Notes under the pieces: model-generated
What the model was told of the DNA's origin: nothing
Database searches by the model: none
Seen by the model: the letters and a program-made list of their open reading frames with translations, nothing else
Virus genome (UHGV): UHGV-0040766
From: a virus
Reading direction: 5' to 3' (one strand)
DNA: 13,115 nt
Translations under genes and position numbers: made by a program
In this document: in pieces, positions 218-13,115 of the stretch
Numbering within the stretch: the stretch's first letter is position 1
Layout: the number at the start of each line of letters is the position of its first letter

Positions 218-230
218 AAACAAATTGTTT
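218..230. promoter_or_regulatory. palindrome AAACA-AAT-TGTTT, copy 1, candidate operator or 5'UTR element
   Basis: perfect 5+3+5 palindrome 12 bp upstream of the truncated gene start codon. Confidence 0.45.
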
Positions 231-1054: not shown

Positions 1055-1086
1055 CTCTTCATCCTCACTTCGTTTATATAACGTCT

Positions 1087-1099
1087 AAACATGTTGTTT
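1087..1099. promoter_or_regulatory. palindrome AAACA-TGT-TGTTT, copy 3
   Basis: 34 bp upstream of ATG of gene 836-1054; followed by a segment (1100-1135) homologous to 3868-3900. Confidence 0.45.
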
Positions 1100-1436
1100 A
1101 CTTATTGGTGTTATTGTCGCAATAAGACAAAGGCGAAAAAGGATTTTATGTCGTGAAAGCCAGGCTGGGCAGTGAATATCCGGGAACGACACGGGAACCA
1201 GTATTTACGATATTCTGCTCTACGCGCGCCGCAGGGCTGGTGGGCAGAATTTTCTTCTCCCCGAAAACCTACTGAAATCGCTTGAGACCCGAGGATGGTC
1301 TGGCAGAATGGAGTTCAGCAGCTGCACGAGAGGGAACGACACTCCCTCGCGATTTTCAGGCGAGCGAAGAGCAAGGCGCACTCCCGAAGATTTCCCGCAC
1401 TGCTCCCGCAGTCGTCCCTCGCTCTGTACCGGGATG

Positions 1437-1575
1437 TACCCGTTTCCCGACCGGCAGCCAGCCTTTTCCCGGTTCGTATAGCGGGATTCCCACCGTTTCC
1501 CTGAAAAACCTCCAGCCTTTTCCCTGCGGCGACGTTCCCGTTCCTGAAAAGGGACATGGCTTTTCCCTGGATGGC
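1437..1575. repeat. direct repeats built on TTTCCC(G/T)G motifs (about 6 copies, roughly 55-bp super-unit) in a GC-rich non-coding tract
   Basis: CCGTTTCCC and CAGCCTTTTCCC each occur twice, alternating, plus related GTTCCCGTTCC and GGCTTTTCCCTGG; only low-complexity overlapping ORFs. Confidence 0.5.
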
Positions 1576-1764
1576 TCGAAGGCTGACCGAAGGGGTGGAT
1601 AGGGACGTTACGGGGGATGAAAACTATGGCTTGAATTTATACGAAGAAAGTGGCGATACCCCTCCTTCCCTTCCCACTTATACCTCCCACGAATTTTCTC
1701 TCTTATGTGGGCATAAACCTTCTCTCTGATAACGCTCAATACGGCGACTATTCCTGTGGGTGAA

Positions 1765-1885
1765 ATGGGTGGTTTGTTCTTTCTACCGGCATATGTGGTT
1801 TCGTTCTTCTTGAGGTGGTTCTTCTCTGTGTTTTCGTCAGGGTTGTTCTCGTTGTTTTGGTGATTGTTCTTCTCTGTGTATGGAG
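1765..1885 (+). repeat. degenerate tandem repeats of about 19-26 bp (GGTT(T/C)GTTCTTCT-like) at the start of a G+T-rich, A-poor tract (about 1740-2450)
   Basis: five successive units starting near 1768, 1795, 1815, 1840, 1860; a sampled 60-nt stretch (1801-1860) has 2 A residues on the plus strand. Confidence 0.45.
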
Positions 1886-2642
1886 TAATGGCAGGTGGGC
1901 GATTCCTTTCGTTATTGTATTTGAGTTGTTTGTCTTGAGAGCGTGAAAGGCTTTTGTGGTTATTTGTGTATTGAGTAATGGCGTTTCCCCGCGAATGTTC
2001 TGTTTCGTGTCTTTGGGGATTGAGGGAGTCCTTGCGGTAACAGGCTTCGTTAGAGTTTCAGTGGTTCTGGTGTTTATTCGCTGTTTGGGGAATGGCGTGT
2101 AGTGGGTATCGCATGTATGAATGTTTCGAGTTGCCTGTGAAAGTTAGGTTGGTTGTCCGGTAGCCTGGGAAGAAGAGGTGGGTCTTTTCAGTAGCCTGCC
2201 ATAAAGAGGTTGGTTGTTTTTGGGAATGTGGGTAATGGCGTCTCTGGGTTTCCTGTGGGTGTGGTTAGCTTGTTTTCTTGTGTCTGAAAACAACTTGTTT
2301 AGATGTCCAATATAACGCAACGGGAGCGCTTCTGAGCGTGTCTGTTTTTGGGTGGTATCACGAGTCGTTTTTGACGTTTTGGTCGCAGGGAGATGGATTC
2401 TGGTACGCTGGATTTGGGTATAAGAGATGGCGTGCGAAAACATCAACTTTTTAGACCAAATCAGGGGAAAGCGTTGACTTTACGTTGATGTGTTATTTAT
2501 TTGTTTTCTTATGGGTGTAATTGGCTTAAATGCCTTGTCACGCCTGGGATTGAGTGGGGTAGGGTGGTGGGGAAAGTGGCGATCAACGGACTCTTATAGA
2601 AATCCTCAATTTGTGACCGCCAATATCAACGAGCTGCAGCCG

Positions 2643-3212
2643 TTAGTTGTTCAGATAGGCATCCGGAACGCGCACATAAAAGTTTCTTTCGCCGGTCAGT
2701 TCCAGAGTAACGTTTATGTCGTTGCCGTTATCCAGCGTAGCCGTCGCTTTATAGAACTTGTCCGTCACCTTGTCCTGAATTGTCACCTTCATACATTTCG
2801 GCGCTGTGGTTCCGTTATTCTCTTTCAGAATGGTCGTTACGAGAGGACAAGCCGCTTCTTCAAGAGCAACCTCTTCCTGGTGTGGGATACCGATGAAGAT
2901 GTTACCAGCAAGCAACGCGACGATTACGATAAAAGGAAGTCGACTGCCTTTTGTAACGGTGGCACGTTTCCAGAGATAGACCGGAAGGAGAAATACTCCC
3001 CACAGGATGGCCGGTGGTTCATACCCTGCATCAGACAATGCCATTCTGTCAGCCACCAGAAAGCCGAGTCCAGCGACTCCACCTATCACTATTGCATAAT
3101 TCAAATACTCATCTGGCGGTGCTCCAAAGAAGAGAGGCAGTAAAGCTAGAAGCCACGCATAAGCATTATTCAGAGGTTTTGTTTGTTGGTTCTGGGTTTC
3201 CATCACATCCAT
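2643..3212 (-). CDS. hypothetical integral membrane protein (about 4 TM segments plus about 80-aa C-terminal soluble domain)
   Basis: ORF track 2643..3212; four hydrophobic stretches (AWLLALLPLFF, YAIVIGGVAGLGFLVA, AILWGVFLLPVYLW, LPFIVIVALLAGNIFIG); overlapping plus-strand ORF 2490..3143 judged spurious. Confidence 0.65.
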   Translation of the reverse strand: MDVMETQNQQTKPLNNAYAWLLALLPLFFGAPPDEYLNYAIVIGGVAGLGFLVADRMALSDAGYEPPAILWGVFLLPVYLWKRATVTKGSRLPFIVIVALLAGNIFIGIPHQEEVALEEAACPLVTTILKENNGTTAPKCMKVTIQDKVTDKFYKATATLDNGNDINVTLELTGERNFYVRVPDAYLNN

Positions 3213-3288
3213 TCCATCAGATTAAAAAGCGGTACTATGTTACCAATTTTCTTCGCTTATATGACATGATTACTCAACGAGTGGGCGA

Positions 3289-3609
3289 TCACCATTCCCA
3301 TGCAGGTAGCCCATCCACCAGCTCGGCGTCGCAATCGAAGTGAACCACGTCAAAGCCGTCATCCAGTATGGTCTGTATGTTGGAGATCGCCTCTTGGGAA
3401 ATGCCGTACTCACGCAGTTCTTCCTTCCAGTCATTCCCTCGCATTCCAGCACGAACAATCCAGCCGTACTGTGTACCGTGTACCCAATTCAACCCGCGAT
3501 CAGTAAGTGGGTCGAAGCAGGCAATGGGTAGCCGTTCTGAATCCGCTGCCGTTACGTGGGCGGTGCTGATCACCGCCGTCTTATACGATTCGGTGATTTT
3601 CAGCATCAT
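3289..3609 (-). CDS. hypothetical protein (106 aa)
   Basis: ORF track; start overlaps stop of upstream gene by 4 nt (ATGA), suggesting translational coupling. Confidence 0.6.
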   Translation of the reverse strand: MMLKITESYKTAVISTAHVTAADSERLPIACFDPLTDRGLNWVHGTQYGWIVRAGMRGNDWKEELREYGISQEAISNIQTILDDGFDVVHFDCDAELVDGLPAWEW

Positions 3610-3839
3610 GCCTTCTCCTTTGGAAACAGAATGTTGGCCGTGTCAGAAATGACATCCCAATTCACGCCGACGCTGGTGTCATGGCACTCTTTGATTTTTC
3701 GCAAAACCTGAACGCACTGTTCGTCAGTCAGGTCTGGTCGCACTTCACCTACATCTTCCTTGTGCCACATCACCATCAGCAGCGGCTCGTCTTCTGGGTA
3801 GTTCTCCAGCTTTTCGATGATGTCTTTTGCGGTTCCGAA
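3606..3839 (-). CDS. hypothetical small acidic protein (77 aa)
   Basis: ORF track 3606..3860 trimmed to ATG at 3837-3839 (MFGTAKDIIEKL...), which has AAGGAG 5 nt upstream; track start is TTG. Confidence 0.6.
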   Translation of the reverse strand, partial: FGTAKDIIEKLENYPEDEPLLMVMWHKEDVGEVRPDLTDEQCVQVLRKIKECHDTSVGVNWDVISDTANILFPKEKA

Positions 3840-3854
3840 CATGATCAACTCCTT

Positions 3855-3867
3855 AAACAATTTATTT
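3855..3867. promoter_or_regulatory. palindrome AAACA-ATT-TATTT, copy 4 (one mismatch)
   Basis: overlaps the region immediately 5' of the RBS of gene 3606-3839. Confidence 0.4.
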
Positions 3868-3905
3868 TCTTATTTGTGTTATTATCTCAAATAACAAAAG
3901 GTAGA

Positions 3906-3918
3906 AAACAAAATGTTT
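3906..3918. promoter_or_regulatory. palindrome AAACA-AAA-TGTTT, copy 5
   Basis: perfect palindrome between genes 3606-3839 and 3928-4194. Confidence 0.4.
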
Positions 3919-3927
3919 AAGGGATGA

Positions 3928-4194
3928 CTAGGTGAGTTTGAAGTCGTCTATGTCATCAACAAACTCCATATACCTGGCTTCGACACTCGACAATCTGATC
4001 AGATACGCAAGCCCGTAACTTAGTGAAGTGGGTTGCTCCAGCACAAATTCGAACCCATCCTCATGCGTTTTACCAAGCCAGAACCCCCCACCGTATTCTT
4101 TTTCACGTTGGAAGAAAACGAACTGTCCGGGTATTAGGTGCTTGAGTGCTTCGCCCCTATAGACGATCACATATTTAGAATTCTTGCTGCCCAT
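3928..4194 (-). CDS. hypothetical protein (88 aa)
   Basis: ORF track 3928..4251 trimmed to ATG at 4192-4194 (MGSKNSKYVIVYRGE...) with GAGG 8 nt upstream. Confidence 0.5.
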   Translation of the reverse strand: MGSKNSKYVIVYRGEALKHLIPGQFVFFQREKEYGGGFWLGKTHEDGFEFVLEQPTSLSYGLAYLIRLSSVEARYMEFVDDIDDFKLT

Positions 4195-4283
4195 TGCTCG
4201 CCTCGCAATACTGTACATATAAACAGTATTATTTATTACGGTACTGGTCAACTTTACGGGTTAATTGAATAACAAGATGGTGA

Positions 4284-4296
4284 AAACAATTTGTTT
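4284..4296. promoter_or_regulatory. palindrome AAACA-ATT-TGTTT, copy 6, in divergent intergenic region
   Basis: lies between divergently oriented genes 3928-4194 (-) and 4382-4585 (+). Confidence 0.45.
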
Positions 4297-4381
4297 TGGC
4301 ACTTGAGATTTTGCAAATCGCACCTACATGGAAAACGGCAATTTTTGAAACCTGATTTGACCCATGTGAAAGGAGGAAACG

Positions 4382-4585
4382 ATGAAGACCTATGATCGCA
4401 ACCGTAACGCTATCACTACCGGCAGCCGAGTGATGGTGGCAACGAATGGTGCAACGGGAGTCATCAAGGAAATCTGCGGAGAAGGCAAATCAGAAGAACA
4501 ATTACGCCGCTCTGACTGCGTGTCTATCGAAGGTGTGGAAGGTCTATTCTGCCCAATGGATTTGGTTCGCCTGGGGTTCCATTAA
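4382..4585 (+). CDS. hypothetical protein (67 aa)
   Basis: ATG at 4382 with strong RBS GAAAGGAGGAAACG immediately upstream; no family recognised. Confidence 0.65.
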   Translation: MKTYDRNRNAITTGSRVMVATNGATGVIKEICGEGKSEEQLRRSDCVSIEGVEGLFCPMDLVRLGFH

Positions 4586-4599
4586 TTTCACCATCTATA

Positions 4600-4612
4600 A
4601 AACAAATTGTTT
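4600..4612. promoter_or_regulatory. palindrome AAACA-AAT-TGTTT, copy 7, adjacent to terminator hairpin
   Basis: perfect palindrome, here at the 3' ends of two convergent genes; supplies the U-tract for the minus-strand transcript. Confidence 0.4.
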
Positions 4613-4640: not shown

Positions 4641-5339
4641 TTACGGAACAGCGGTAATCAGATCGCAAATGCCTGTTTTAGTTAAATCACTATTCAGCTT
4701 CTGAAAATTGGCATTCAGCATTGCGGTATGTATTCGATTCTCAAGTTCAAAGAAGAGACCGATCTTGCCCTCTTTGGCTGCCACCTTCTTCCAAATATTC
4801 ACCTGGTCATCTGCGATACGACTTGCGCAGGTGAACAAGAACGAACTCCCTCTGGGAAGGGATGTCGTGCTGTAGTATTCACCGTCAACTTCAATATACT
4901 TAGCTCGGAATGACTCCAGAGTTAGCTTTTTACCGCTCTCAGCCTGCTTTGTGTCTGCCTTGCTTGTCTTTTCCTGAACTTCAGGCTGTTTCTGCACAGG
5001 CTTTGGTGTCTCATTGACCACCGCAGTGCTGGCCGAACCATCCAAACTCTTGAGGCCATTAATTTGGATTAGATAAGCCAACTCCAGAGCCTTATCACCA
5101 GTGAGTTTTCCACGCATACTTACCCATTGACGCTGAACCGTCTTTAAGGCGTCTGCGTCCCCCGGGTTTGCTTTGAGTGCGTTGGAATAGGTAGAGCTAA
5201 GTTGTTCGTCTAATTTTGACAGGCGTTCGTTATCGCAGATTTTGTGTTCGATTTCTGCCGAAGCCTTTTGGCAGTCAAAGCTGGCTGCAAATACAGCCGG
5301 CGATGCCACCAACAATGATGCCAGTAGGATATTTTTCAT
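4641..5339 (-). CDS. periplasmic DUF1311 / lysozyme-inhibitor LprI-like protein with signal peptide (232 aa)
   Basis: ATG at 5337-5339 with GGAG 6 nt upstream; N-terminal MKNILLASLLVASPAVFA signal peptide; FDCQKASAEIEHKICDNERLSKLDEQLSSTY...QRQW pattern typical of DUF1311. Confidence 0.65.
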   Translation of the reverse strand: MKNILLASLLVASPAVFAASFDCQKASAEIEHKICDNERLSKLDEQLSSTYSNALKANPGDADALKTVQRQWVSMRGKLTGDKALELAYLIQINGLKSLDGSASTAVVNETPKPVQKQPEVQEKTSKADTKQAESGKKLTLESFRAKYIEVDGEYYSTTSLPRGSSFLFTCASRIADDQVNIWKKVAAKEGKIGLFFELENRIHTAMLNANFQKLNSDLTKTGICDLITAVP

Positions 5340-5377
5340 ATTCACTCCATAAATATAAAAGCGCCTGACTATAGCAC

Positions 5378-5827: not shown

Positions 5828-6559
5828 TCAGCGGGGACTTAACAAAAGCGGAGACTCGCTCGACAAGCCGGCCAGTGAACCAACATCCCCCCAATTCTGG
5901 TGTGTCAGCGCCCCGATACTTACCACTCCAGGCAGCACTTCTTTGTGGTTGTGGTAGTGCCCGGACAACAATAAACGGAAGCCGATATCTTTCAGTTCCT
6001 GTGCGTCGATGCCGACATCGGGCATGGTGGGGATCGCTTTGTTGATTGAGGTATGTACAACAACATCATGGTTGTCACCATCCAGCCCGGAACGCAGCGT
6101 TTTGAGATCGCTGATAAGTTCTGCGTAGTTATTACGCCAGCTAATCAGATGGACGGTTACGTCGCCCATTTTGATGGAATGAGGACGTTTGCCGCAGACG
6201 ATTTCCACACCGATTGAGCGCAGAGAGGCTGCTGCATTGGCGCTGTATACGGAATCGTTGGTTTCGAGGTCGTGGTTGCCAGCCAGCATTACCACCTTGA
6301 GACCCAACTCTTTGATGATCCACTCGTAAGTTTCGGTCACGAAATGCAGAACGGAAGGTGATATAGCACCGCGAACATGGAAGGTATCACCAGCTACCAG
6401 CATGTTCTTACAGCCAGCAGCTTTCATCGCTTTGGCCGCCTCCTTCGTAGCGTCCAGTTGGATCTCCAGCCGAGAGTTAAGCCCGTCAGCGTTTGTTGTC
6501 GCAAAAGCATCCCAACGATGATAATGGGGATCTGATATTACCCCGTATGGCAATGTCAT
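5828..6559 (-). CDS. calcineurin-like metallophosphoesterase (243 aa)
   Basis: motifs SDPHYH, AGDTFH, GNHD and SGHYHNH in the canonical order; ATG at 6557-6559 with AAGGA 9 nt upstream. Confidence 0.75.
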   Translation of the reverse strand: MTLPYGVISDPHYHRWDAFATTNADGLNSRLEIQLDATKEAAKAMKAAGCKNMLVAGDTFHVRGAISPSVLHFVTETYEWIIKELGLKVVMLAGNHDLETNDSVYSANAAASLRSIGVEIVCGKRPHSIKMGDVTVHLISWRNNYAELISDLKTLRSGLDGDNHDVVVHTSINKAIPTMPDVGIDAQELKDIGFRLLLSGHYHNHKEVLPGVVSIGALTHQNWGDVGSLAGLSSESPLLLSPR

Positions 6560-7676: not shown

Positions 7677-7901
7677 TTATTCACTTTATTCACAGGCCCG
7701 ATCCAATATTTAGATCCCCAGAGAGATCCTACAGAAGATCAAAAGAGATCCCCGATCGTCTCCAGCGCTTGCGGTTACTGGCTTGAGAAGGGGTTACTAT
7801 CCACTATAGGGAGCAAAATAACCACTGTAGAGAGCATAATAACCGCTATGAAGAGCAAAACAACCTCTCTGGAGAGTAGTCGGTATCCACTGTAGTGAGT
7901 A
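7677..7901 (+). other. replication origin module 1 (P1 oriR / RepFIB type): two tandem DnaA boxes, six GATC sites, five iterons
   Basis: TTATTCACT at 7677-7685 and TTATTCACA at 7686-7694; GATC at 7700, 7713, 7725, 7737, 7747, 7754; five roughly 21-bp-spaced iterons 7797-7901 (e.g. ATAACCACTGTAGAGAGCA). Confidence 0.7.
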
Positions 7902-8060
7902 GGAGACAATGTTTTAACTGGATAACTCCGAGCCTGTTTTTCTGCGGCAGATGGCTGATATTCTTGGAAATATTGTAAATTTTGCGTTGCGGCGTGTTTA
8001 TTTCGATCACACATTATCCCCAGAAGGGGAGTGATGCCTGATTTTGTAATTATCTGATTT

Positions 8061-8305
8061 TTATACACAGGCCCGATCCAGTAATTCAGATCCCTGTTAG
8101 AACCAAAGAGAACCACAAAGACCCAAAGAGATCCCCGGCCCTTGCAAACCGTTGTGCCACATGGCTTTAGAGGTTATCGATATCCACTATAGTGAGAAGA
8201 ACAACCACTATAGAGAGTAAATCAACCACTATGGAGAGTAGAAAAACCGCTGTAGGCGGTAGGATAACCACTGTGATGGGTGCTACTATCCACTGTAATC
8301 AGTAA
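8061..8305 (+). other. replication origin/control module 2, immediately upstream of repA: one DnaA box, three GATC sites, six iterons
   Basis: TTATACACA at 8061-8069; GATC at 8075, 8089, 8130, with AGAACC/AGACCC variants where module 1 has AGATCC; six iterons 8180-8304. Confidence 0.7.
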
Positions 8306-8342
8306 AGGCACCCAAGCCGTCGAATAAAAAGAGACATTTGGA

Positions 8343-9398
8343 ATGAGCGTAAACGACAATAAAAACATTGCGATAAGCGAAGCATTTTCCGAAACAGACA
8401 AAAAGACCGGCGAAGTTGTTACGTTAGTTCCTAACACCAACAACACAGTTCAGCCTGTTGCTCTGATGCGTCTTGGTCTCTTCGTTCCGACGCTGAAATC
8501 GACATCCAGGGGTAGAAAGGGGCAAATGGTCTCTATGGACGCCTCCGCTGAACTCAAACAGCTGTCTCTGGCCAAAGCCGAAGGGTACGAGGATATAAGG
8601 ATTGCTGGTCTTCGTCTTGATATGGATAACGATTTCAAAACATGGGTGGGCATCATCCACGCGTTCGCCAAGCACAAGGTTGTTGGTGACACCGTCACGT
8701 TGCCGTTCGTCGAGTTCGTCAGACTTTGTGGCATACCAACAGCCAGATCGTCCGCGAAGTTACGTAAGCGCCTGGACAGCTCTCTAAGTCGTATCGCCAC
8801 AAACACCATCTCATTCCGCAGCAAAGGCTCTGAAGAGTATTACGTTACGCACCTTGTGCAGACGGCAAAGTACAGTACCAAGAATGACACGGTCGAACTG
8901 AAGGCCGATCCTAAGATTTTCGAACTTTACCAGTTCGACAAAAAGGTGCTTTTGCAACTTCGGGCCATCAACGAACTCTCCAGAAAGGAATCCGCGCAGG
9001 CGCTCTACACCTTCATTGAAAGTTTGCCACCAGACCCGGCGCCAATCTCATTGGCTCGCTTACGCGCCAGACTTAACTTAACCAGCCGCACCATTACCCA
9101 GAATGCGACAGTCAGGAAGGCGATGGAGCAGCTGCGAGAGATCGGCTATCTCGATTACACTGAAGTGAAACGCGGCAGCTCGGTCTACTTCGTCATCCAC
9201 TATAGACGGCCGAAGTTACGTTCGGCACTGCCGCCATCTATGGCTACGCCTGAAGAGCCAGAAGATATCTTGCCAGGTGATGATCCGGAGGACATTATCG
9301 ATGTTGCCCCTGAAGAAAAAGACGGGGAAATGGTCATGTTGAGCAAGGAAGAACTGGCGATTCTCGAAGAGCTGCGCAAGGCAAAGGCTCGCAAATAG
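8343..9398 (+). CDS. repA: iteron-binding replication initiator, RepFIB / P1 RepA family (351 aa)
   Basis: translation closely matches my recollection of F-plasmid RepFIB initiator (e.g. [69 protein letters not shown]); flanked by iteron arrays. Confidence 0.9.
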
Positions 9399-9400
9399 CC

Positions 9401-10003
9401 CAACCACTGTAGAGAGTAAAAAGGCTCACTATCTACTGTAGTGAGCCTTTTTGTTTATCGGAAATGCAATATCCACTGTAGTGAGTAAAAGAAACCGAAG
9501 AATAACCACTGTAGGCAGTGCGCACAAATCGCGAAGTAAATGTTAGTGGTTGCAAACATAGATAAAACAAGGGCTGAGAGGTTAGCGGTCACTGGGTATC
9601 TCTGTTAAGTCTACTCTCTACAGCGGTTATCGTCGCTCTCCTCATTGTTGACTATCCACTGTGAAGAGCAGAATTGGCTGACTTGACCTCTATCCACTGT
9701 AGTGAGTGGATATCCGTTTAAAACAGCGAAGATTTACTCTCCATAGTGGATATCCGCTGGAGGGGGCATTCCATCACTCTCTATAGTGGTTGTTTGTAGT
9801 CAGTGAACGCCTGTTTACTCACTACAGTGTATAGCGACCCCGATAATCACCAATTTACTCACTACAGTGGATAGTTGATATCGTGGCAGAGGGTTTGCTC
9901 ACTACAGTGGTTGGGGTGCATACCTGAAGGGTGTTCTACTCGCTACAGTGGTTATGAGCCGGATTCACACGCGGTGAGCTGGCTACTCACCGCAGTGGAT
10001 AGT
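9401..10003. repeat. downstream iteron array (incA-like copy-control locus): about 14 iterons, the first five or six forward, the rest inverted
   Basis: forward units at 9401, 9431, 9469, 9502, 9651, 9690; inverted units (TACTC(A/T)CTACAGTGG-like) at 9612, 9736, 9775, 9816, 9856, 9897, 9936, 9984. Confidence 0.8.
9419..9458 (+). terminator. rho-independent-type terminator of repA, built on an iteron-like sequence
   Basis: 10-bp perfect stem AAAGGCTCAC / GTGAGCCTTT (9420-9429, 9441-9450), followed by TTTTGTTT, beginning 21 nt after the repA stop. Confidence 0.55.
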
Positions 10004-11225: not shown

Positions 11226-11534
<309 letters not shown>

Positions 11535-11539
11535 CTAAG

Positions 11540-11545
11540 AGTCAA
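11540..11545 (-). promoter_or_regulatory. -35 hexamer TTGACT at the right end of the IS110-family element (half of a circle-junction promoter)
   Basis: TTGACT lies 14 nt from the element end; joined to the left end this gives TTGACT, 17-bp spacer, AATAAT. Confidence 0.45.
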
Positions 11546-12618
11546 GCTGTTATCGGGATACTGTTGATCCGCCTGTTTTGATTGCGCAGTAACGTGTAAA
11601 CTTCGCGGGAGATATATCGCTTTAGACAGCGTATCGCTTCCATTTTTGTATGTCCTTCGGCTACACGCCTGGCGACATATTCCTTTGTTTTTGCGTCAGT
11701 TCGTAAGCGTCCGATGGCGATGATGTGAAGTGCACTATTTGCAGCACGATCTCCACCACGATTAAGTCGGTAACGGTTCGTTTTTCCAGAAGAAACGGGG
11801 ACCGGGCTGACACCACACAGTGCCGCAAATCCTGATTCTGATCTTAACCGTTGAGGATTGTCTCCGGCAGTGATCAGCAACTGTGAAGCGCTTTCGTATC
11901 CGATAGCATTACGTTTAATCAGCTCAGGTGCCAACTCGTCGACAATTGCCGCAATCATGACATCCAGATCAGCGATTTCGTCATGTAACTCGAGATAGCG
12001 TCGGGCAAGGGACTTTAATGAAATGCGATAAACGTTGGTTACATTGCGGTATTCACTGGCATCAGGTCTCCAGGAACCCAGGGTCCTGATGAGCTGCATG
12101 CGCGTCATATTTCTGAGCTGTTCACGTAATTCATCCGGGGCAGAGATAATATTTGAATGGATAATCTGGAGAGCGACTCTGCGGGCTGATATTGCTGTTT
12201 TTCGGCAAGTTTTTAATACCCGCAGGGACTCAATCATGCCATCACGCGTTTTGGGAGTAACTGTCCTGATGCCTGAGAATGCTGCATGAGCGGCACATTC
12301 AGCATCAATTGTGTCACTTTTACCCCGTTTGCGTCGCTCCATCCGGTCTGGAGCAGTCACCTCAAGAACCTCTAACCCGGCGTTCTGAAAATAACGAAGC
12401 AAACCGGAACCATAGGTACCTGTGCACTCAACACCAATTCGCTTTAATGTCCCAAACGAGGTCATCCATGCCAGCATCTGCCGGTAACCTTGTCGTGTTG
12501 TGGAGAAATACTGAGTCCCAAGGACTTTATTGTTCTGATCTACGACAGCGGCAACGTGCAAATCTTTATGTGTATCCACGCCACCCACAACGGCAGCTTT
12601 GGTAACTTTATCAACCAT
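11542..12618 (-). CDS. IS110-family DEDD transposase / recombinase (358 aa)
   Basis: N-terminal VGGVDTHKDLHV, ECTGTYGSG and TDTIDAECAAHAA motifs (DEDD/RuvC-like) plus C-terminal FAALCGVSPVPVSSGK segment; AGGAG 8 nt upstream of ATG at 12616-12618. Confidence 0.9.
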   Translation of the reverse strand: MVDKVTKAAVVGGVDTHKDLHVAAVVDQNNKVLGTQYFSTTRQGYRQMLAWMTSFGTLKRIGVECTGTYGSGLLRYFQNAGLEVLEVTAPDRMERRKRGKSDTIDAECAAHAAFSGIRTVTPKTRDGMIESLRVLKTCRKTAISARRVALQIIHSNIISAPDELREQLRNMTRMQLIRTLGSWRPDASEYRNVTNVYRISLKSLARRYLELHDEIADLDVMIAAIVDELAPELIKRNAIGYESASQLLITAGDNPQRLRSESGFAALCGVSPVPVSSGKTNRYRLNRGGDRAANSALHIIAIGRLRTDAKTKEYVARRVAEGHTKMEAIRCLKRYISREVYTLLRNQNRRINSIPITA

Positions 12619-12890
12619 GACAGAGCTCCTGTGAGGAAACAGAGTTGAATCTCCAGACAGATAACCCGGACAGGACAGTAACGAGACAAGCCGTCAGGCC
12701 CTTCTTGAGTCACGCGCATCGGTGAGGAGATGCCTCGCATGAAGGCGCTTCCGGCAACCGACGGGTCCAGGGCAGGACACAAAAGGTCGATCGCTGTGTG
12801 AGTCAGGATGCGGGAAGGTCTTCACTGCATCAGTAATCACACCAATCTGGTTAAACGGCAAACTAAGTGGTGGTAAAGACTGACATCGGC
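12619..12890 (-). ncRNA. candidate bridge RNA (guide ncRNA) encoded in the 5' non-coding arm of the IS110-family element; exact ends unknown
   Basis: arm contains CACAGCGATC (identical to reconstructed target across the crossover) and CTGCCCTG (reverse complement of right target flank) 13 nt apart; also AGAAGGGC matching the element's right end; no plausible ORF. Confidence 0.5.
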
Positions 12891-12896
12891 ATTATT
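12891..12896 (-). promoter_or_regulatory. -10 hexamer AATAAT at the left end of the IS110-family element (other half of the circle-junction promoter)
   Basis: element begins AGTAATAATGCC on the minus strand; in the integrated state no good -35 lies upstream. Confidence 0.45.
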
Positions 12897-12899
12897 ACT

Positions 12900-13097
12900 A
12901 TCGCTGTGGAACATCACCCCGCCGGGCTTACCACGGGTTTCCCATGCCATTTCCAGCGATTTCATGGTGAGCCTGCTGTCCGGCGAGAACGACATGGCCC
13001 AGCCCACTGGTTTTCTTGCGAACAGGTCGAGAACAACGGCGAGGTACGCCCAGCGCTTACCCGTCCAGAGTAGAGTAAGAGGCAGGGCGTAGTCGGA
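12900..13097 (-). pseudogene. IS3-family orfB, internal fragment proximal to the nested insertion, with an in-frame stop upstream
   Basis: minus-strand SDYALPLTLLWTGKRWAYLAVVLDLFARKPVGWAMSFSPDSRLTMKSLEMAWETRGKPGGVMFHSD; in-frame TAG at 13098-13100. Confidence 0.7.
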
Positions 13098-13115
13098 CTA
13101 TTTCCCTGCCTCTCC

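What the first reader, a model, noticed from the sequence alone, without database searches (positions are those of the whole stretch)
2643..3839. Operon of two small proteins feeding into a 4-TM membrane protein with a C-terminal soluble domain
Seen: genes 3606-3839 and 3289-3609 overlap by ATGA, and the membrane protein follows 76 bp downstream on the same strand, all behind one palindrome-containing promoter module. Inference: the architecture (small cytoplasmic factors plus a membrane effector) resembles superinfection-exclusion or abortive-infection modules, but no domain is recognised.
Basis: inference. Interest (0 to 1): 0.4.

Follow-up and report, generated by a model that had tools for sequence, protein, structure and literature searches.

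The report
Two early genes plus swappable membrane gene
The three genes are real, but they are not one system: a pair of small early genes of a phage-plasmid sits next to a separately acquired membrane-protein gene in a variable slot that elsewhere holds an anti-phage defence gene, and none of the three has a known function.

Summary
The window is the accessory region next to repA of an SSU5/pHCM2-type phage-plasmid, 100% identical to E. coli pXJW9B263-1. The three minus-strand ORFs, the ATGA overlap, the 76-bp gap and the upstream palindrome are all real. All three genes are under purifying selection (dN/dS 0.1-0.25).

They form two modules, not one operon-encoded system.

(1) A translationally coupled pair of acidic cytoplasmic proteins. 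One is a 78-aa four-helix protein remotely like the N-terminal half of DUF1380. The other is a bona fide DUF5983 protein. The pair sits behind a conserved promoter flanked by two AAACA-N3-TGTTT dyads, a motif with 7 exact copies in the window. Both families are enriched in leading regions of conjugative plasmids.

(2) A 657-bp cassette with its own conserved extended -10 motif. It encodes an N-in/C-out inner-membrane protein with a periplasmic cystatin-like domain. The protein belongs to a large unnamed family (1,422 clusters), usually GYF_2-fused or lipoprotein-anchored.

The cassette occupies a hypervariable slot that elsewhere carries UzuA (Uzume defence) or a lysogen-expressed moron. Divergence jumps sharply at the junction, and each gene occurs without the others.

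A superinfection-exclusion or defence role for the membrane protein alone is plausible but unproven.

The parts
3606..3842 (-). 78-aa acidic cytoplasmic protein, first gene of the coupled pair. RefSeq labels it 'DUF1380 domain-containing'. It matches phrog_10258.
3289..3609 (-). 106-aa DUF5983 protein (105 aa from ATG 3606), translationally coupled to the 78-aa gene through ATGA(TG). This is the conserved anchor gene of the locus.
   Evidence: Pfam PF19419 7.3e-22, 77.9 bits against GA 27. phrog_5003. SD AAGGAGAAGG at 3620-3611. pI 4.4. Homologues occur in 2,394 plasmids, 1,715 of them conjugative. In pOXA-48-type IncL plasmids the homologue lies next to ssb in the leading region. dN/dS 0.10-0.20.
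2643..3212 (-). 189-aa inner-membrane protein (186 aa from ATG 3203). It has a short N-terminus, helices 17-29, 34-61, 69-87 and 92-133, then a four-stranded cystatin-like domain (about 115-189). The motif ATLDNGND is invariant in the 14-sequence family alignment, and Cys140 is invariant in 106 wider relatives. Predicted topology is N-in/C-out.
2632..3288 (-). Extent of the exchangeable cassette in the hypervariable slot. It lies between the DUF5983 stop and the conserved 1.5-kb backbone region.
   Evidence: Backbone homology to SSU5, Cyrano and others resumes at about window 2631. The slot holds different cargo in SSU5, pHCM2, Cyrano, Klebsiella and Enterobacter phage-plasmids. A 96%-identical membrane gene sits behind a ~50%-identical DUF5983 gene in an ETEC plasmid.
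3237..3246 (-). Candidate extended -10 promoter of the membrane gene: TTGGTAACAT, with TG at 3245-3244 and the hexamer TAACAT at 3242-3237.
   Evidence: TTGnTAnnAT is invariant in four loci representing two different upstream contexts (alignment A3). This is inferred and has not been mapped. The simple sigma-70 scan, which requires a -35 match, did not flag it.
3851..3922 (.). Palindromic promoter/operator module upstream of the pair. It has two dyads, at 3906-3918 (AAACAAAATGTTT) and 3855-3867 (AAACAATTTATTT). They flank an invariant TGAGATAAT at 3889-3881 (minus strand). The SD at 3854-3849 lies in the right arm.
   Evidence: Inverted repeat. Dyad motif: 8 sites against 0.53 expected, 7 of them exact. 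The module is conserved in 7 phage-plasmids with GATAAT invariant (A7). RNA hairpin -28.6 kcal/mol.
3928..4194 (-). Upstream 88-aa gene (phrog_2100). It is a neighbouring separate unit with its own dyad at 4284-4296.
   Evidence: It is conserved next to the pair or next to DUF5983 in SSU5, pHCM2, pJN2-26 and Enterobacter plasmids.

Best explanation
The locus is a composite of two independent modules in the accessory/early region of an SSU5-like phage-plasmid.

Module A (3289-3842) is a translationally coupled pair of small acidic cytoplasmic proteins. One is a 78-aa four-helix protein remotely related to the N-terminal half of DUF1380. The other is a DUF5983 protein. The pair is transcribed from an extended -10 promoter (TGAGATAAT) bracketed by two AAACA-N3-TGTTT dyads. 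These dyads are most likely operators of a shared repressor that also controls the neighbouring small-gene units. The pair is therefore probably silent in the plasmid-prophage state and expressed on entry or induction. It is an 'establishment' gene set of the same kind as in conjugative-plasmid leading regions, with a host-takeover or anti-defence role as the best guess (inferred).

Module B (2632-3288) is a horizontally exchanged cassette in a hypervariable slot. It has its own candidate promoter (TTGGTAACAT, 3246-3237). It encodes an inner-membrane protein with three spans, one cytoplasmic interfacial helix and N-in/C-out topology. The protein displays a highly conserved cystatin-like domain in the periplasm. 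It is a stripped-down phage copy of a widespread cellular family that is otherwise GYF_2- or zinc-ribbon-fused, or lipoprotein-anchored.

My best guess is that Module B is expressed from the resident phage-plasmid and acts at the envelope, for example by blocking DNA entry of incoming phages. That step is inference from position only.
For: Identity of the element:
- 100% match to pXJW9B263-1 and 82% to SSU5. A Rep3 repA with iterons lies nearby.

Modularity:
- All gene combinations are observed.
- Against pCFSAN076210 the pair is 95/90% identical at the protein level (dS 0.09/0.24), but the membrane protein is 65% identical (dS 2.2).
- Against ETEC plasmid 3 the membrane protein is 96% identical (dS 0.19), but DUF5983 is about 50% identical.

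Own promoter for the membrane gene:
- TTGnTAnnAT is invariant upstream of the membrane gene in two different contexts.
- In Cyrano lysogens the slot gene CYRAN_102 reads 56.9 against 7.45 for the DUF5983 homologue CYRAN_101, and it is listed as a moron (PMC9928086).

Slot character:
- At least six unrelated cargos occur there. One is UzuA of the Uzume defence system, E = 2.5e-58, directly after the membrane gene in pCFSAN076210. An 81%-identical copy lies in the same slot, directly after the DUF5983 gene, in an Enterobacter plasmid that has no membrane gene there.

The pair:
- DUF5983 scores 77.9 bits.
- The DUF5983 homologue lies directly after ssb in the pOXA-48 leading region, together with DUF4942, DUF1380 and an antirestriction gene.
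- DUF1380 and DUF5983 families rank 7 and 72 among leading-region-enriched families (PMC11541004 supplement).
- Distant 78-aa homologues sit with orphan methyltransferases, RadC, DUF6876 and DUF932.

Operator:
- There are 7 exact dyads, or 8 sites against 0.53 expected. They lie in the intergenic or ORF-free stretches of the left third of the window, five of them directly upstream of a minus-strand gene.
- The module is conserved across 7 elements with only the central bases of the dyads variable.

Topology and fold.
Against: - No transcript ends are mapped for this element, and no intrinsic terminator separates the pair from the membrane gene. Read-through co-transcription after derepression is therefore likely, so 'operon' is not strictly excluded.
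- In every phage-plasmid examined the membrane gene lies downstream of a DUF5983 gene. This could reflect function rather than just a shared insertion slot.
- The expression argument rests on a different cargo gene in a different phage-plasmid.
- The periplasmic domain is conserved across phyla (ATLDNGND invariant in the 14-sequence family alignment). That is unusual for fast-evolving exclusion proteins and suggests a conserved cellular ligand.
- No homology to any known Sie, Abi, defence or anti-defence protein was found.
- The repressor that would bind the dyads is unidentified.
- The -35 elements of both candidate promoters are weak.
Confidence: 0.55

Rival explanations
1. The three genes form one functional system, in which the two small cytoplasmic proteins regulate or partner the membrane effector as a superinfection-exclusion or abortive-infection module.
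For: All three lie on the same strand with ATGA coupling and a 76-nt gap. No terminator is predicted between them. At least 29 plasmids keep the whole 1.9-kb arrangement. In all phage-plasmids examined the membrane gene is downstream of a DUF5983 gene.
Against: Each gene occurs without the others. SSU5, pHCM2, Cyrano, pJN2-26, pOXA-48, chromosomal loci and jumbo-phage loci show this. The dS values jump sharply at the junction, and the 96%-identical membrane gene sits in a different context. The membrane gene has its own conserved promoter-like motif. The families of the small proteins are associated with leading regions and MTase/RadC islands, never with membrane genes.
Confidence: 0.12
2. The membrane protein is not a phage-defence factor. 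It is a captured copy of a cellular envelope protein whose conserved periplasmic domain binds a conserved host component. It would serve lysogenic conversion, envelope physiology or the phage's own lytic cycle.
For: The family has 1,422 clusters in diverse bacteria, mostly as stand-alone chromosomal genes with cytoplasmic GYF_2 or zinc-ribbon domains or as lipoproteins. ATLDNGND is invariant in the 14-sequence family alignment and Cys140 in 106 wider relatives, so the motif is conserved across phyla. Homologues occur in strictly lytic Erwinia and Dickeya jumbo phages, where prophage-type exclusion is not applicable. There are no defence-database hits.
Against: The slot context includes UzuA and a lysogen-expressed moron. 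The cassette is exchanged horizontally between phage-plasmid lineages, which is typical of accessory conflict genes. Lytic phages also encode exclusion proteins; T4 Imm and Sp are examples (from my own knowledge).
Confidence: 0.22
3. The coupled pair is a toxin-antitoxin or addiction module that stabilises the phage-plasmid.
For: The two genes are small and translationally coupled. A toxin-antitoxin survey recorded DUF5983 as a recurrent 'partner' gene downstream of the CbtA toxin (PMC10790755). It is also consistently encoded next to cbtA/cbeA (bioRxiv 2026.06.09.728211).
Against: DUF5983 stands alone in many phage-plasmids and in leading regions, and the 78-aa gene is optional. Both proteins are acidic and carry no toxin or antitoxin (DNA-binding) domain. 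In CP4-44-type islands the antitoxin is CbeA, not DUF5983.
Confidence: 0.07

Closest known systems
Pfam DUF5983 (PF19419). Members include the gene downstream of cbtA in CP4-44-type prophage islands ('Aec77') and the post-ssb gene of the pOXA-48 leading region.
   Same: The 106-aa protein matches the family model end to end at 77.9 bits. It is 43% identical to the pOXA-48 homologue and 49% identical to Cyrano CYRAN_101.
   Different: Here the gene lies in a phage-plasmid early region behind an operator-bearing promoter, not next to ssb/oriT or cbtA. The family has no demonstrated function. One paper assigns it a glyoxalase/bleomycin-resistance-like fold (bioRxiv 2024.01.30.577995). I did not test that here.
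Pfam DUF1380 (PF07128). These are the YcgB/YubF-type proteins of IncF, IncI and IncL leading regions.
   Same: RefSeq names the 78-aa protein DUF1380. It aligns with residues 1-69 of the pOXA-48 DUF1380-family protein at 30% identity, E = 3e-7. The shared motif is W-x3-DV...LTDE.
   Different: It covers only the N-terminal half (78 aa against about 137 aa). It gives no hit to the Pfam model at E <= 1. Even the pOXA-48 protein scores below the gathering cut-off, 23 against 26 bits. The core motif HDAxVGVNWDVI of the 78-aa family is not kept in the pOXA-48 protein.
Leading-region anti-defence or establishment islands of conjugative plasmids (Samuel et al. 2024, PMC11541004).
   Same: The gene families are the same: DUF4942 methylase, DUF1380-like and DUF5983. 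The arrangement is the same: arrays of small same-strand genes with repeated special promoters. DUF1380 and DUF5983 families are listed among the leading-region-enriched families.
   Different: This element is a non-conjugative phage-plasmid without oriT. The repeated promoter carries dyad operators and is not an Frpo-type single-strand promoter, because the -10 lies at the loop of the palindrome and not in a stem. No anti-defence activity is shown for either family.
Phage superinfection-exclusion membrane proteins such as T4 Imm/Sp, P22 SieA and HK97 gp15 (from my own knowledge).
   Same: It is a small prophage-borne inner-membrane protein with a periplasm-facing part. It is encoded as an accessory moron-like cassette in a variable slot.
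   Different: No sequence or profile similarity to any annotated exclusion family was found. The protein belongs to a widespread cellular family with a highly conserved periplasmic domain. No functional data exist.
Unnamed family with a GYF_2 (PF14237) or zinc-ribbon N-terminus, a TM module and an 'ATLDNGND' domain. Its phage representative is phrog_12486.
   Same: The protein matches over both the TM module and the C-domain (E down to 1e-56). In total 1,422 clusters match at E <= 1e-3, and 122 of the 170 proteins analysed carry both modules. The conserved motifs are shared: N-x-Y/F-x-W, PVYLWKRA, CP-VT, C140 and ATLDNGND.
   Different: The phage-plasmid and jumbo-phage versions lack the cytoplasmic N-terminal domain. 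The family has no Pfam model for either module, apart from one member that hits DUF2628, and it has no known function.

Membership tests
Pfam DUF5983 (PF19419) | Match to the family HMM above the gathering score | tested here: met
   77.9 bits against a cut-off of 27, E = 7.3e-22. Residues 12-106 match profile positions 2-90 of 90.
Pfam DUF1380 (PF07128) | Match to the family HMM above the gathering score (26 bits) | tested here: not met
   No hit at E <= 1 for the 78-aa protein. None of the 52 relatives hits it.
Pfam DUF1380 (PF07128) | Detectable homology to an accepted family member | tested here: inconclusive
   BLASTP E = 3e-7 over the N-terminal 65-69 residues of the pOXA-48 'DUF1380 family protein'. 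That protein itself scores 23 bits, below the cut-off.
Single operon / one functional system of three genes | Same strand, short gaps, no internal terminator | tested here: met
   ATGA overlap and a 76-nt gap. No terminator-like site was found between 2643 and 3842 on the minus strand.
Single operon / one functional system of three genes | No internal promoter | tested here: inconclusive
   A conserved TTGnTAnnAT extended -10-like motif lies 25-35 nt upstream of the start codon (ATG 3212 or 3203). The analogous slot gene in Cyrano is expressed 8-fold above the upstream gene. No TSS data exist for this element.
Single operon / one functional system of three genes | Co-conservation and shared evolutionary history of the genes | tested here: not met
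   All partial combinations exist. dS is discontinuous at the junction.
Superinfection-exclusion proteins | Homology to a described exclusion family | tested here: not met
   PHROGs returns only phrog_12486 (unknown function). Pfam, NCBIfam, PADLOC and BFVD give no annotated match.
Superinfection-exclusion proteins | Membrane location with an extracytoplasmic part | tested here: met
   This is prediction only. It rests on hydropathy, the AF2 model, occurrence of the C-domain behind lipoprotein signal peptides, and loop charge bias.
Superinfection-exclusion proteins | Expressed from the resident prophage and blocks entry or development of incoming phage | not testable with these tools
   The only support is positional analogy to CYRAN_102 expression and to UzuA in the same slot.
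Known anti-phage defence systems (PADLOC-DB v2) | HMM match to a component of a known or candidate system | tested here: not met
   No hit at E <= 0.01 for any of the three proteins or for seven neighbouring proteins.
Unnamed GYF_2 / TM / ATLDNGND-domain family (phrog_12486) | Profile match across both the TM module and the C-terminal domain, with the conserved motifs | tested here: met
   phrog_12486 4.5e-114. The profile search finds 1,422 clusters, and 122 of the 170 proteins analysed carry both modules. Invariant W20, P77, Y79, C140 and ATLDNGND.
Unnamed GYF_2 / TM / ATLDNGND-domain family (phrog_12486) | Cytoplasmic N-terminal GYF_2 or zinc-ribbon domain | tested here: not met
   The window protein has only 16 residues before the first helix. 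GYF_2 is present in 27 of 52 sampled relatives.
Leading-region establishment / anti-defence genes | Family statistically enriched next to oriT on the T-strand | tested here: met
   This holds for the families, from the literature. DUF1380 ranks 7 and DUF5983 ranks 72 in the supplement of PMC11541004. The pOXA-48 context supports it. This element itself has no oriT.
Leading-region establishment / anti-defence genes | Demonstrated inhibition of a defence system | not testable with these tools
   No experimental data were found for either family.

The most novel reading that the evidence does not exclude
The membrane protein could be the phage-borne representative of a large, unnamed and uncharacterised family. 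The family has at least 1,400 clusters, and no Pfam model covers either its TM module or its 'ATLDNGND' extracytoplasmic cystatin-like domain. Temperate phage-plasmids and lytic jumbo phages would have captured it as a new class of envelope-level exclusion or defence factor. In parallel, the DUF5983/DUF1380-like pair could be a new anti-defence or host-takeover pair shared between phage-plasmid early regions and conjugative-plasmid leading regions, controlled by a so far undescribed AAACA-N3-TGTTT repressor regulon.
Probability: 0.2. Interest if true: 0.55.

Novelty: new member of a known kind. Interest (0 to 1): 0.3.

Why it matters
SSU5/pHCM2-type phage-plasmids are common in clinical Enterobacteriaceae. 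Their accessory slots are where defence, anti-defence and conversion genes are traded.

This analysis delimits one such slot. It lies between the DUF5983 gene and a conserved 1.5-kb backbone. It already holds one known defence gene (UzuA) and several unknowns, so the 189-aa membrane protein becomes a well-defined single-gene candidate for phage-exclusion assays.

The analysis also links phage-plasmid early genes to two uncharacterised families that are enriched in plasmid leading regions. A function found in one setting would probably transfer to the other, including to pOXA-48-type resistance plasmids.

None of this is surprising to a specialist. The value is in better-defined candidates rather than a new principle.

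Tried and rejected
- Foldseek against AFDB50 was unavailable.
- BFVD gave only uncharacterised phage proteins.
- PDB sequence searches gave nothing.
- PADLOC, NCBIfam and relaxed PHROGs searches found no known defence, exclusion or lysis family.
- Rfam gave only sub-threshold chance hits to the palindrome (miRNA models, 22-26 bits against gathering scores of 56-100). There are no tRNAs.
- The sigma-70/terminator scan found no promoter for these genes and no relevant terminator. It requires a -35 match.
- I considered the palindrome as an Frpo-like single-strand promoter or a regulatory RNA hairpin. Both are less likely than a pair of protein operators. Each arm is itself a dyad, the variable positions are the dyad centres, arm-to-arm changes are not cleanly compensatory, and the invariant GATAAT sits at the loop.
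- I considered a toxin-antitoxin reading of the pair and rejected it (see rivals).
- The genome-contig scan returned only 4 loci, because the back-translated patterns were strict.
- Literature searches for the RefSeq protein accessions and for bacterial GYF_2 membrane proteins found nothing useful.
Full report
**What the window is.** The 1.9 kb around the finding is 100% identical to E. coli plasmid pXJW9B263-1. It matches 314 plasmids, 304 of them predicted non-mobilizable and those listed about 110-230 kb (the closest group about 110 kb), from Escherichia, Enterobacter, Klebsiella, Salmonella and Citrobacter. Window 3291-4300 is 82% identical to Salmonella phage SSU5. A Rep3-type repA (8343-9398) flanked by iterons lies a few kb away. 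The region is therefore the accessory/early region of an SSU5/pHCM2-type phage-plasmid.

**Checking the observation.**
- The three minus-strand ORFs exist.
- The first gene really starts at ATG 3842, behind AAGGAG at 3854-3849, and not at 3839. It encodes 78 aa.
- Its stop overlaps the start of the next gene as ATGA at 3609-3606, behind AAGGAGAAGG at 3620-3611. This is classic translational coupling.
- The third ORF starts 76 nt (ATG 3212) or 85 nt (ATG 3203, the RefSeq choice) after the second one ends.
- A 33-nt-arm inverted repeat (3851-3883/3890-3922, 82% complementary) fills the space between the upstream 88-aa gene and the SD.
- All three genes are under purifying selection. dN/dS is 0.10-0.25 in all but one comparison with enough substitutions to estimate it. 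The 78-aa gene compared with SSU5 has only a handful of substitutions and gives a ratio near 1.
- The two small proteins are acidic (pI 4.4-4.5) and have no hydrophobic segment.
- The third protein has four hydrophobic helices and a soluble C-terminal domain.

**The small proteins.**
- The 106-aa protein is a clear member of Pfam DUF5983, at 77.9 bits against a cut-off of 27.
- Homologues occur in 2,394 plasmids, of which 1,715 are conjugative.
- In pOXA-48-type IncL plasmids the homologue lies directly after ssb in the leading region. Nearby are DUF4942, Hha, a 'DUF1380 family' protein and an antirestriction gene, just before mobA and the relaxase.
- In the literature DUF5983 is the gene found downstream of cbtA in CP4-44-type islands (PMC10790755; bioRxiv 2026.06.09.728211).
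- One study assigned DUF5983 a glyoxalase/bleomycin-resistance-like fold (bioRxiv 2024.01.30.577995). I did not test that here.
- RefSeq labels the 78-aa protein DUF1380, but it gives no Pfam hit at E <= 1.
- It aligns with only the N-terminal 69 residues of the pOXA-48 DUF1380-family protein (E = 3e-7). That protein itself scores below the Pfam cut-off. The 78-aa protein is therefore at best a remote half-length relative.
- A profile search shows a family of 60-140-aa proteins sharing W-x3-DV...LTDEQ...HDAxVGVNWDVI.
- Distant members sit beside orphan N6/N4 methyltransferases (one with a 4-nt overlap), RadC, DUF6876 and DUF932.
- The supplement of Samuel et al. 2024 (PMC11541004) lists a DUF1380 family (rank 7) and a DUF5983 family (rank 72) among the families enriched in leading regions of conjugative elements.
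- Both proteins therefore belong to the uncharacterised 'establishment' gene pool of mobile elements.

**The promoter module.**
- Each arm of the palindrome is itself a dyad, AAACA-N3-TGTTT.
- The window has 7 exact copies plus one degenerate copy. That is 8 sites within 3 mismatches of the 15-mer, against 0.53 expected. All lie between 218 and 4612.
- They lie in the intergenic or ORF-free stretches of that part of the window. Five sit directly upstream of a minus-strand gene start.
- The module upstream of the pair is conserved in seven phage-plasmids whose DUF5983 proteins are only about 50% identical. It has an invariant GATAAT (3886-3881), preceded by TG in most of them. Variation is concentrated at the dyad centres.
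- I read this as an extended -10 promoter bracketed by two operators of a shared, unidentified repressor.
- The alternative of a long RNA hairpin (-28.6 kcal/mol) or an Frpo-like single-strand promoter fits less well.
- In phage Cyrano, which has the same module in front of its DUF5983 homologue (49% identity), that gene is near background in lysogens (7.45; PMC9928086 S1 Table). This is consistent with repression in the plasmid-prophage state.

**The membrane protein.**
- Close relatives are few: 23 clusters and 108 plasmids.
- A profile search finds 1,422 clusters.
- The typical architecture is an N-terminal cytoplasmic GYF_2 domain (27 of 52 sampled) or zinc ribbon, then the TM module, then the C-terminal domain.
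- The C-domain also occurs alone or in tandem behind canonical lipoprotein signal peptides, so it is extracytoplasmic.
- With cytoplasmic N-terminal partners, the topology must be N-in/C-out with an odd number of spans.
- Family-wide, loop 1 is nearly free of K/R (0.25), while loops 2 and 3 carry 2.8 and 3.0. This indicates that helices 1, 2 and 4 span the membrane and helix 3 (PVYLWKRA) lies at the cytoplasmic face.
- AF2 (pLDDT 84.5) shows the last TM helix continuing into a long helix packed on a four-stranded antiparallel sheet.
- ATLDNGND is invariant in the 14-sequence family alignment and Cys140 in 106/106 wider relatives. Cys122 is present in 74/106.
- Distant homologues (27-31% identity) occur in lytic Erwinia and Dickeya jumbo phages. 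Others are stand-alone chromosomal genes in Citrobacter, Frateuria, Verrucomicrobiota and Lentisphaerae.
- There is no hit to Pfam, NCBIfam, PADLOC, PDB sequences or any annotated PHROG.

**Are the three genes one unit?** The evidence says no.
- SSU5 has 88aa-78aa-DUF5983 followed by two unrelated genes.
- pHCM2 has 88aa-DUF5983-396aa.
- Cyrano has metG-DUF5983-coiled-coil protein.
- pJN2-26 and Klebsiella plasmids have DUF5983 with other small genes.
- An Enterobacter plasmid has DUF5983-GIY-YIG-172aa.
- E. coli rep_cluster_488 phage-plasmids have metG-DUF5983-61aa-membrane gene, with no 78-aa gene.
- Local tblastn over all fetched loci confirms that every combination occurs.
- Divergence is mosaic. 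Against pCFSAN076210 the pair is 95/90% identical (dS 0.09/0.24), but the adjacent membrane gene is 65% identical (dS 2.2). Against ETEC plasmid 3 the membrane gene is 96% identical (dS 0.19), but the DUF5983 gene is about 50% identical.
- Backbone homology resumes 12 nt after the membrane gene's stop, in a 1.5-kb ORF-poor region conserved in all SSU5-like phages.
- The membrane gene is therefore a 657-bp cassette (2632-3288) in a hypervariable slot.
- About 60 bp of upstream sequence travels with the cassette. It contains an invariant TTGnTAnnAT, which is TTGGTAACAT at 3246-3237 in the window. This is the same extended -10 style as the other promoters of the region.

**What the slot suggests.**
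- In Cyrano the gene in this slot (CYRAN_102) is expressed at 56.9 against 7.45 for the upstream DUF5983 gene in lysogens. The authors list it as a moron.
- In pCFSAN076210 the gene directly after the membrane gene is UzuA of the Uzume defence system (E = 2.5e-58, full length). An 81%-identical copy sits in the same slot of an Enterobacter plasmid.
- By position, the membrane protein is thus a candidate prophage-expressed conflict gene. An envelope-level block to incoming phage is the most economical mechanism for an N-in/C-out protein with a periplasmic binding domain.
- This step is inference. The deep conservation of the periplasmic domain and the many chromosomal relatives equally allow a conserved cellular ligand and a non-defence role.

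**Verdict.**
- The single-system interpretation is not supported.
- The defence/exclusion idea survives only for the membrane gene, and only as a hypothesis.
- The pair is best described as repressor-controlled early 'establishment' genes from families shared with conjugative-plasmid leading regions.
- All components are already catalogued as hypothetical families, and the sequence itself is in public plasmids. The locus is therefore an ordinary but now well-delimited set of candidates. I score interest at 0.3.

Noticed in passing
window 218-230, 709-721, 1087-1099, 2288-2300, 3855-3867, 3906-3918, 4284-4296, 4600-4612: A repeated dyad, AAACA-N3-TGTTT, has 7 exact copies and 1 degenerate copy, against about 0.5 sites expected. 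The copies lie in intergenic or ORF-free stretches of the small-gene arrays, and five sit directly upstream of a minus-strand gene. This suggests a regulon of an unidentified repressor. The motif is conserved in SSU5, Cyrano, pJN2-26 and others.
   Followed up: partly
window 1060-2642: This ~1.5-kb stretch has no credible ORF and no CDS in RefSeq, yet it is conserved at 72-84% in all SSU5-like phages and phage-plasmids. It contains several internal direct repeats (for example 2124-2217 and 1446-1569) and one dyad. It could be a non-coding functional element such as an origin, a centromere or a long RNA. There is no Rfam hit.
   Followed up: partly
L006 3653-4489 (Salmonella pCFSAN076210); L026 4400-5236 (Enterobacter hormaechei pFJMB80007_2): A GIY-YIG protein matching PADLOC UzuA (Uzume defence, E = 2.5e-58) sits in the same variable slot. 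A conserved 172-aa protein with a signal-peptide-like N-terminus follows it.
   Followed up: partly
window 3217-3203: A conserved 4-codon mini-ORF, ATG GAA TGG ATG TGA (MEWM*), overlaps both candidate start codons of the membrane gene. The one substitution seen in relatives (TGA to TAA) keeps both the mini-ORF stop and the Val codon of the long frame. It may have a role in translational control.
   Followed up: no
window 7796-8310 and 9399-10003: Arrays of ~21-bp iterons (TATCCACTGTAGTGAGTA-like) lie on both sides of the Rep3-type repA (8343-9398). The downstream array is in inverted orientation.
   Followed up: no
window 4382-4585 (+), 4641-5345 (-), 5828-6559 (-): Three neighbouring genes are notable: ydfZ on the opposite strand, an LprI-family (lysozyme-inhibitor-like) protein with a signal peptide, and an SbcD-like metallophosphoesterase (phrog_100, N-terminal 243 aa only). 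In pXJW9B263-1 an IS3-family element is inserted between the LprI gene and the 214-aa gene.
   Followed up: no
window 11226-13115: This region contains an IS3-family transposase fragment (11226-11495), a complete 358-aa IS110-like transposase ORF (11542-12618) and further transposase fragments. It is an insertion-sequence pile-up at the right end of the window.
   Followed up: no
L013 4001-4863 (metagenome contig): A distant homologue of the 78-aa protein overlaps by 4 nt with an orphan N6/N4 DNA methyltransferase. It lies next to an AbiEii/DUF6088 pair. This hints that the small-protein family travels with restriction-evasion genes.
   Followed up: partly
membrane protein residue C140 (window about 2795-2793): Cys140 of the periplasmic domain is invariant in 106/106 family members. 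Its presumed disulfide partner Cys122 is missing in 30% of them, including all the lipoprotein forms. The invariant Cys may therefore have a role other than an intramolecular disulfide.
   Followed up: no
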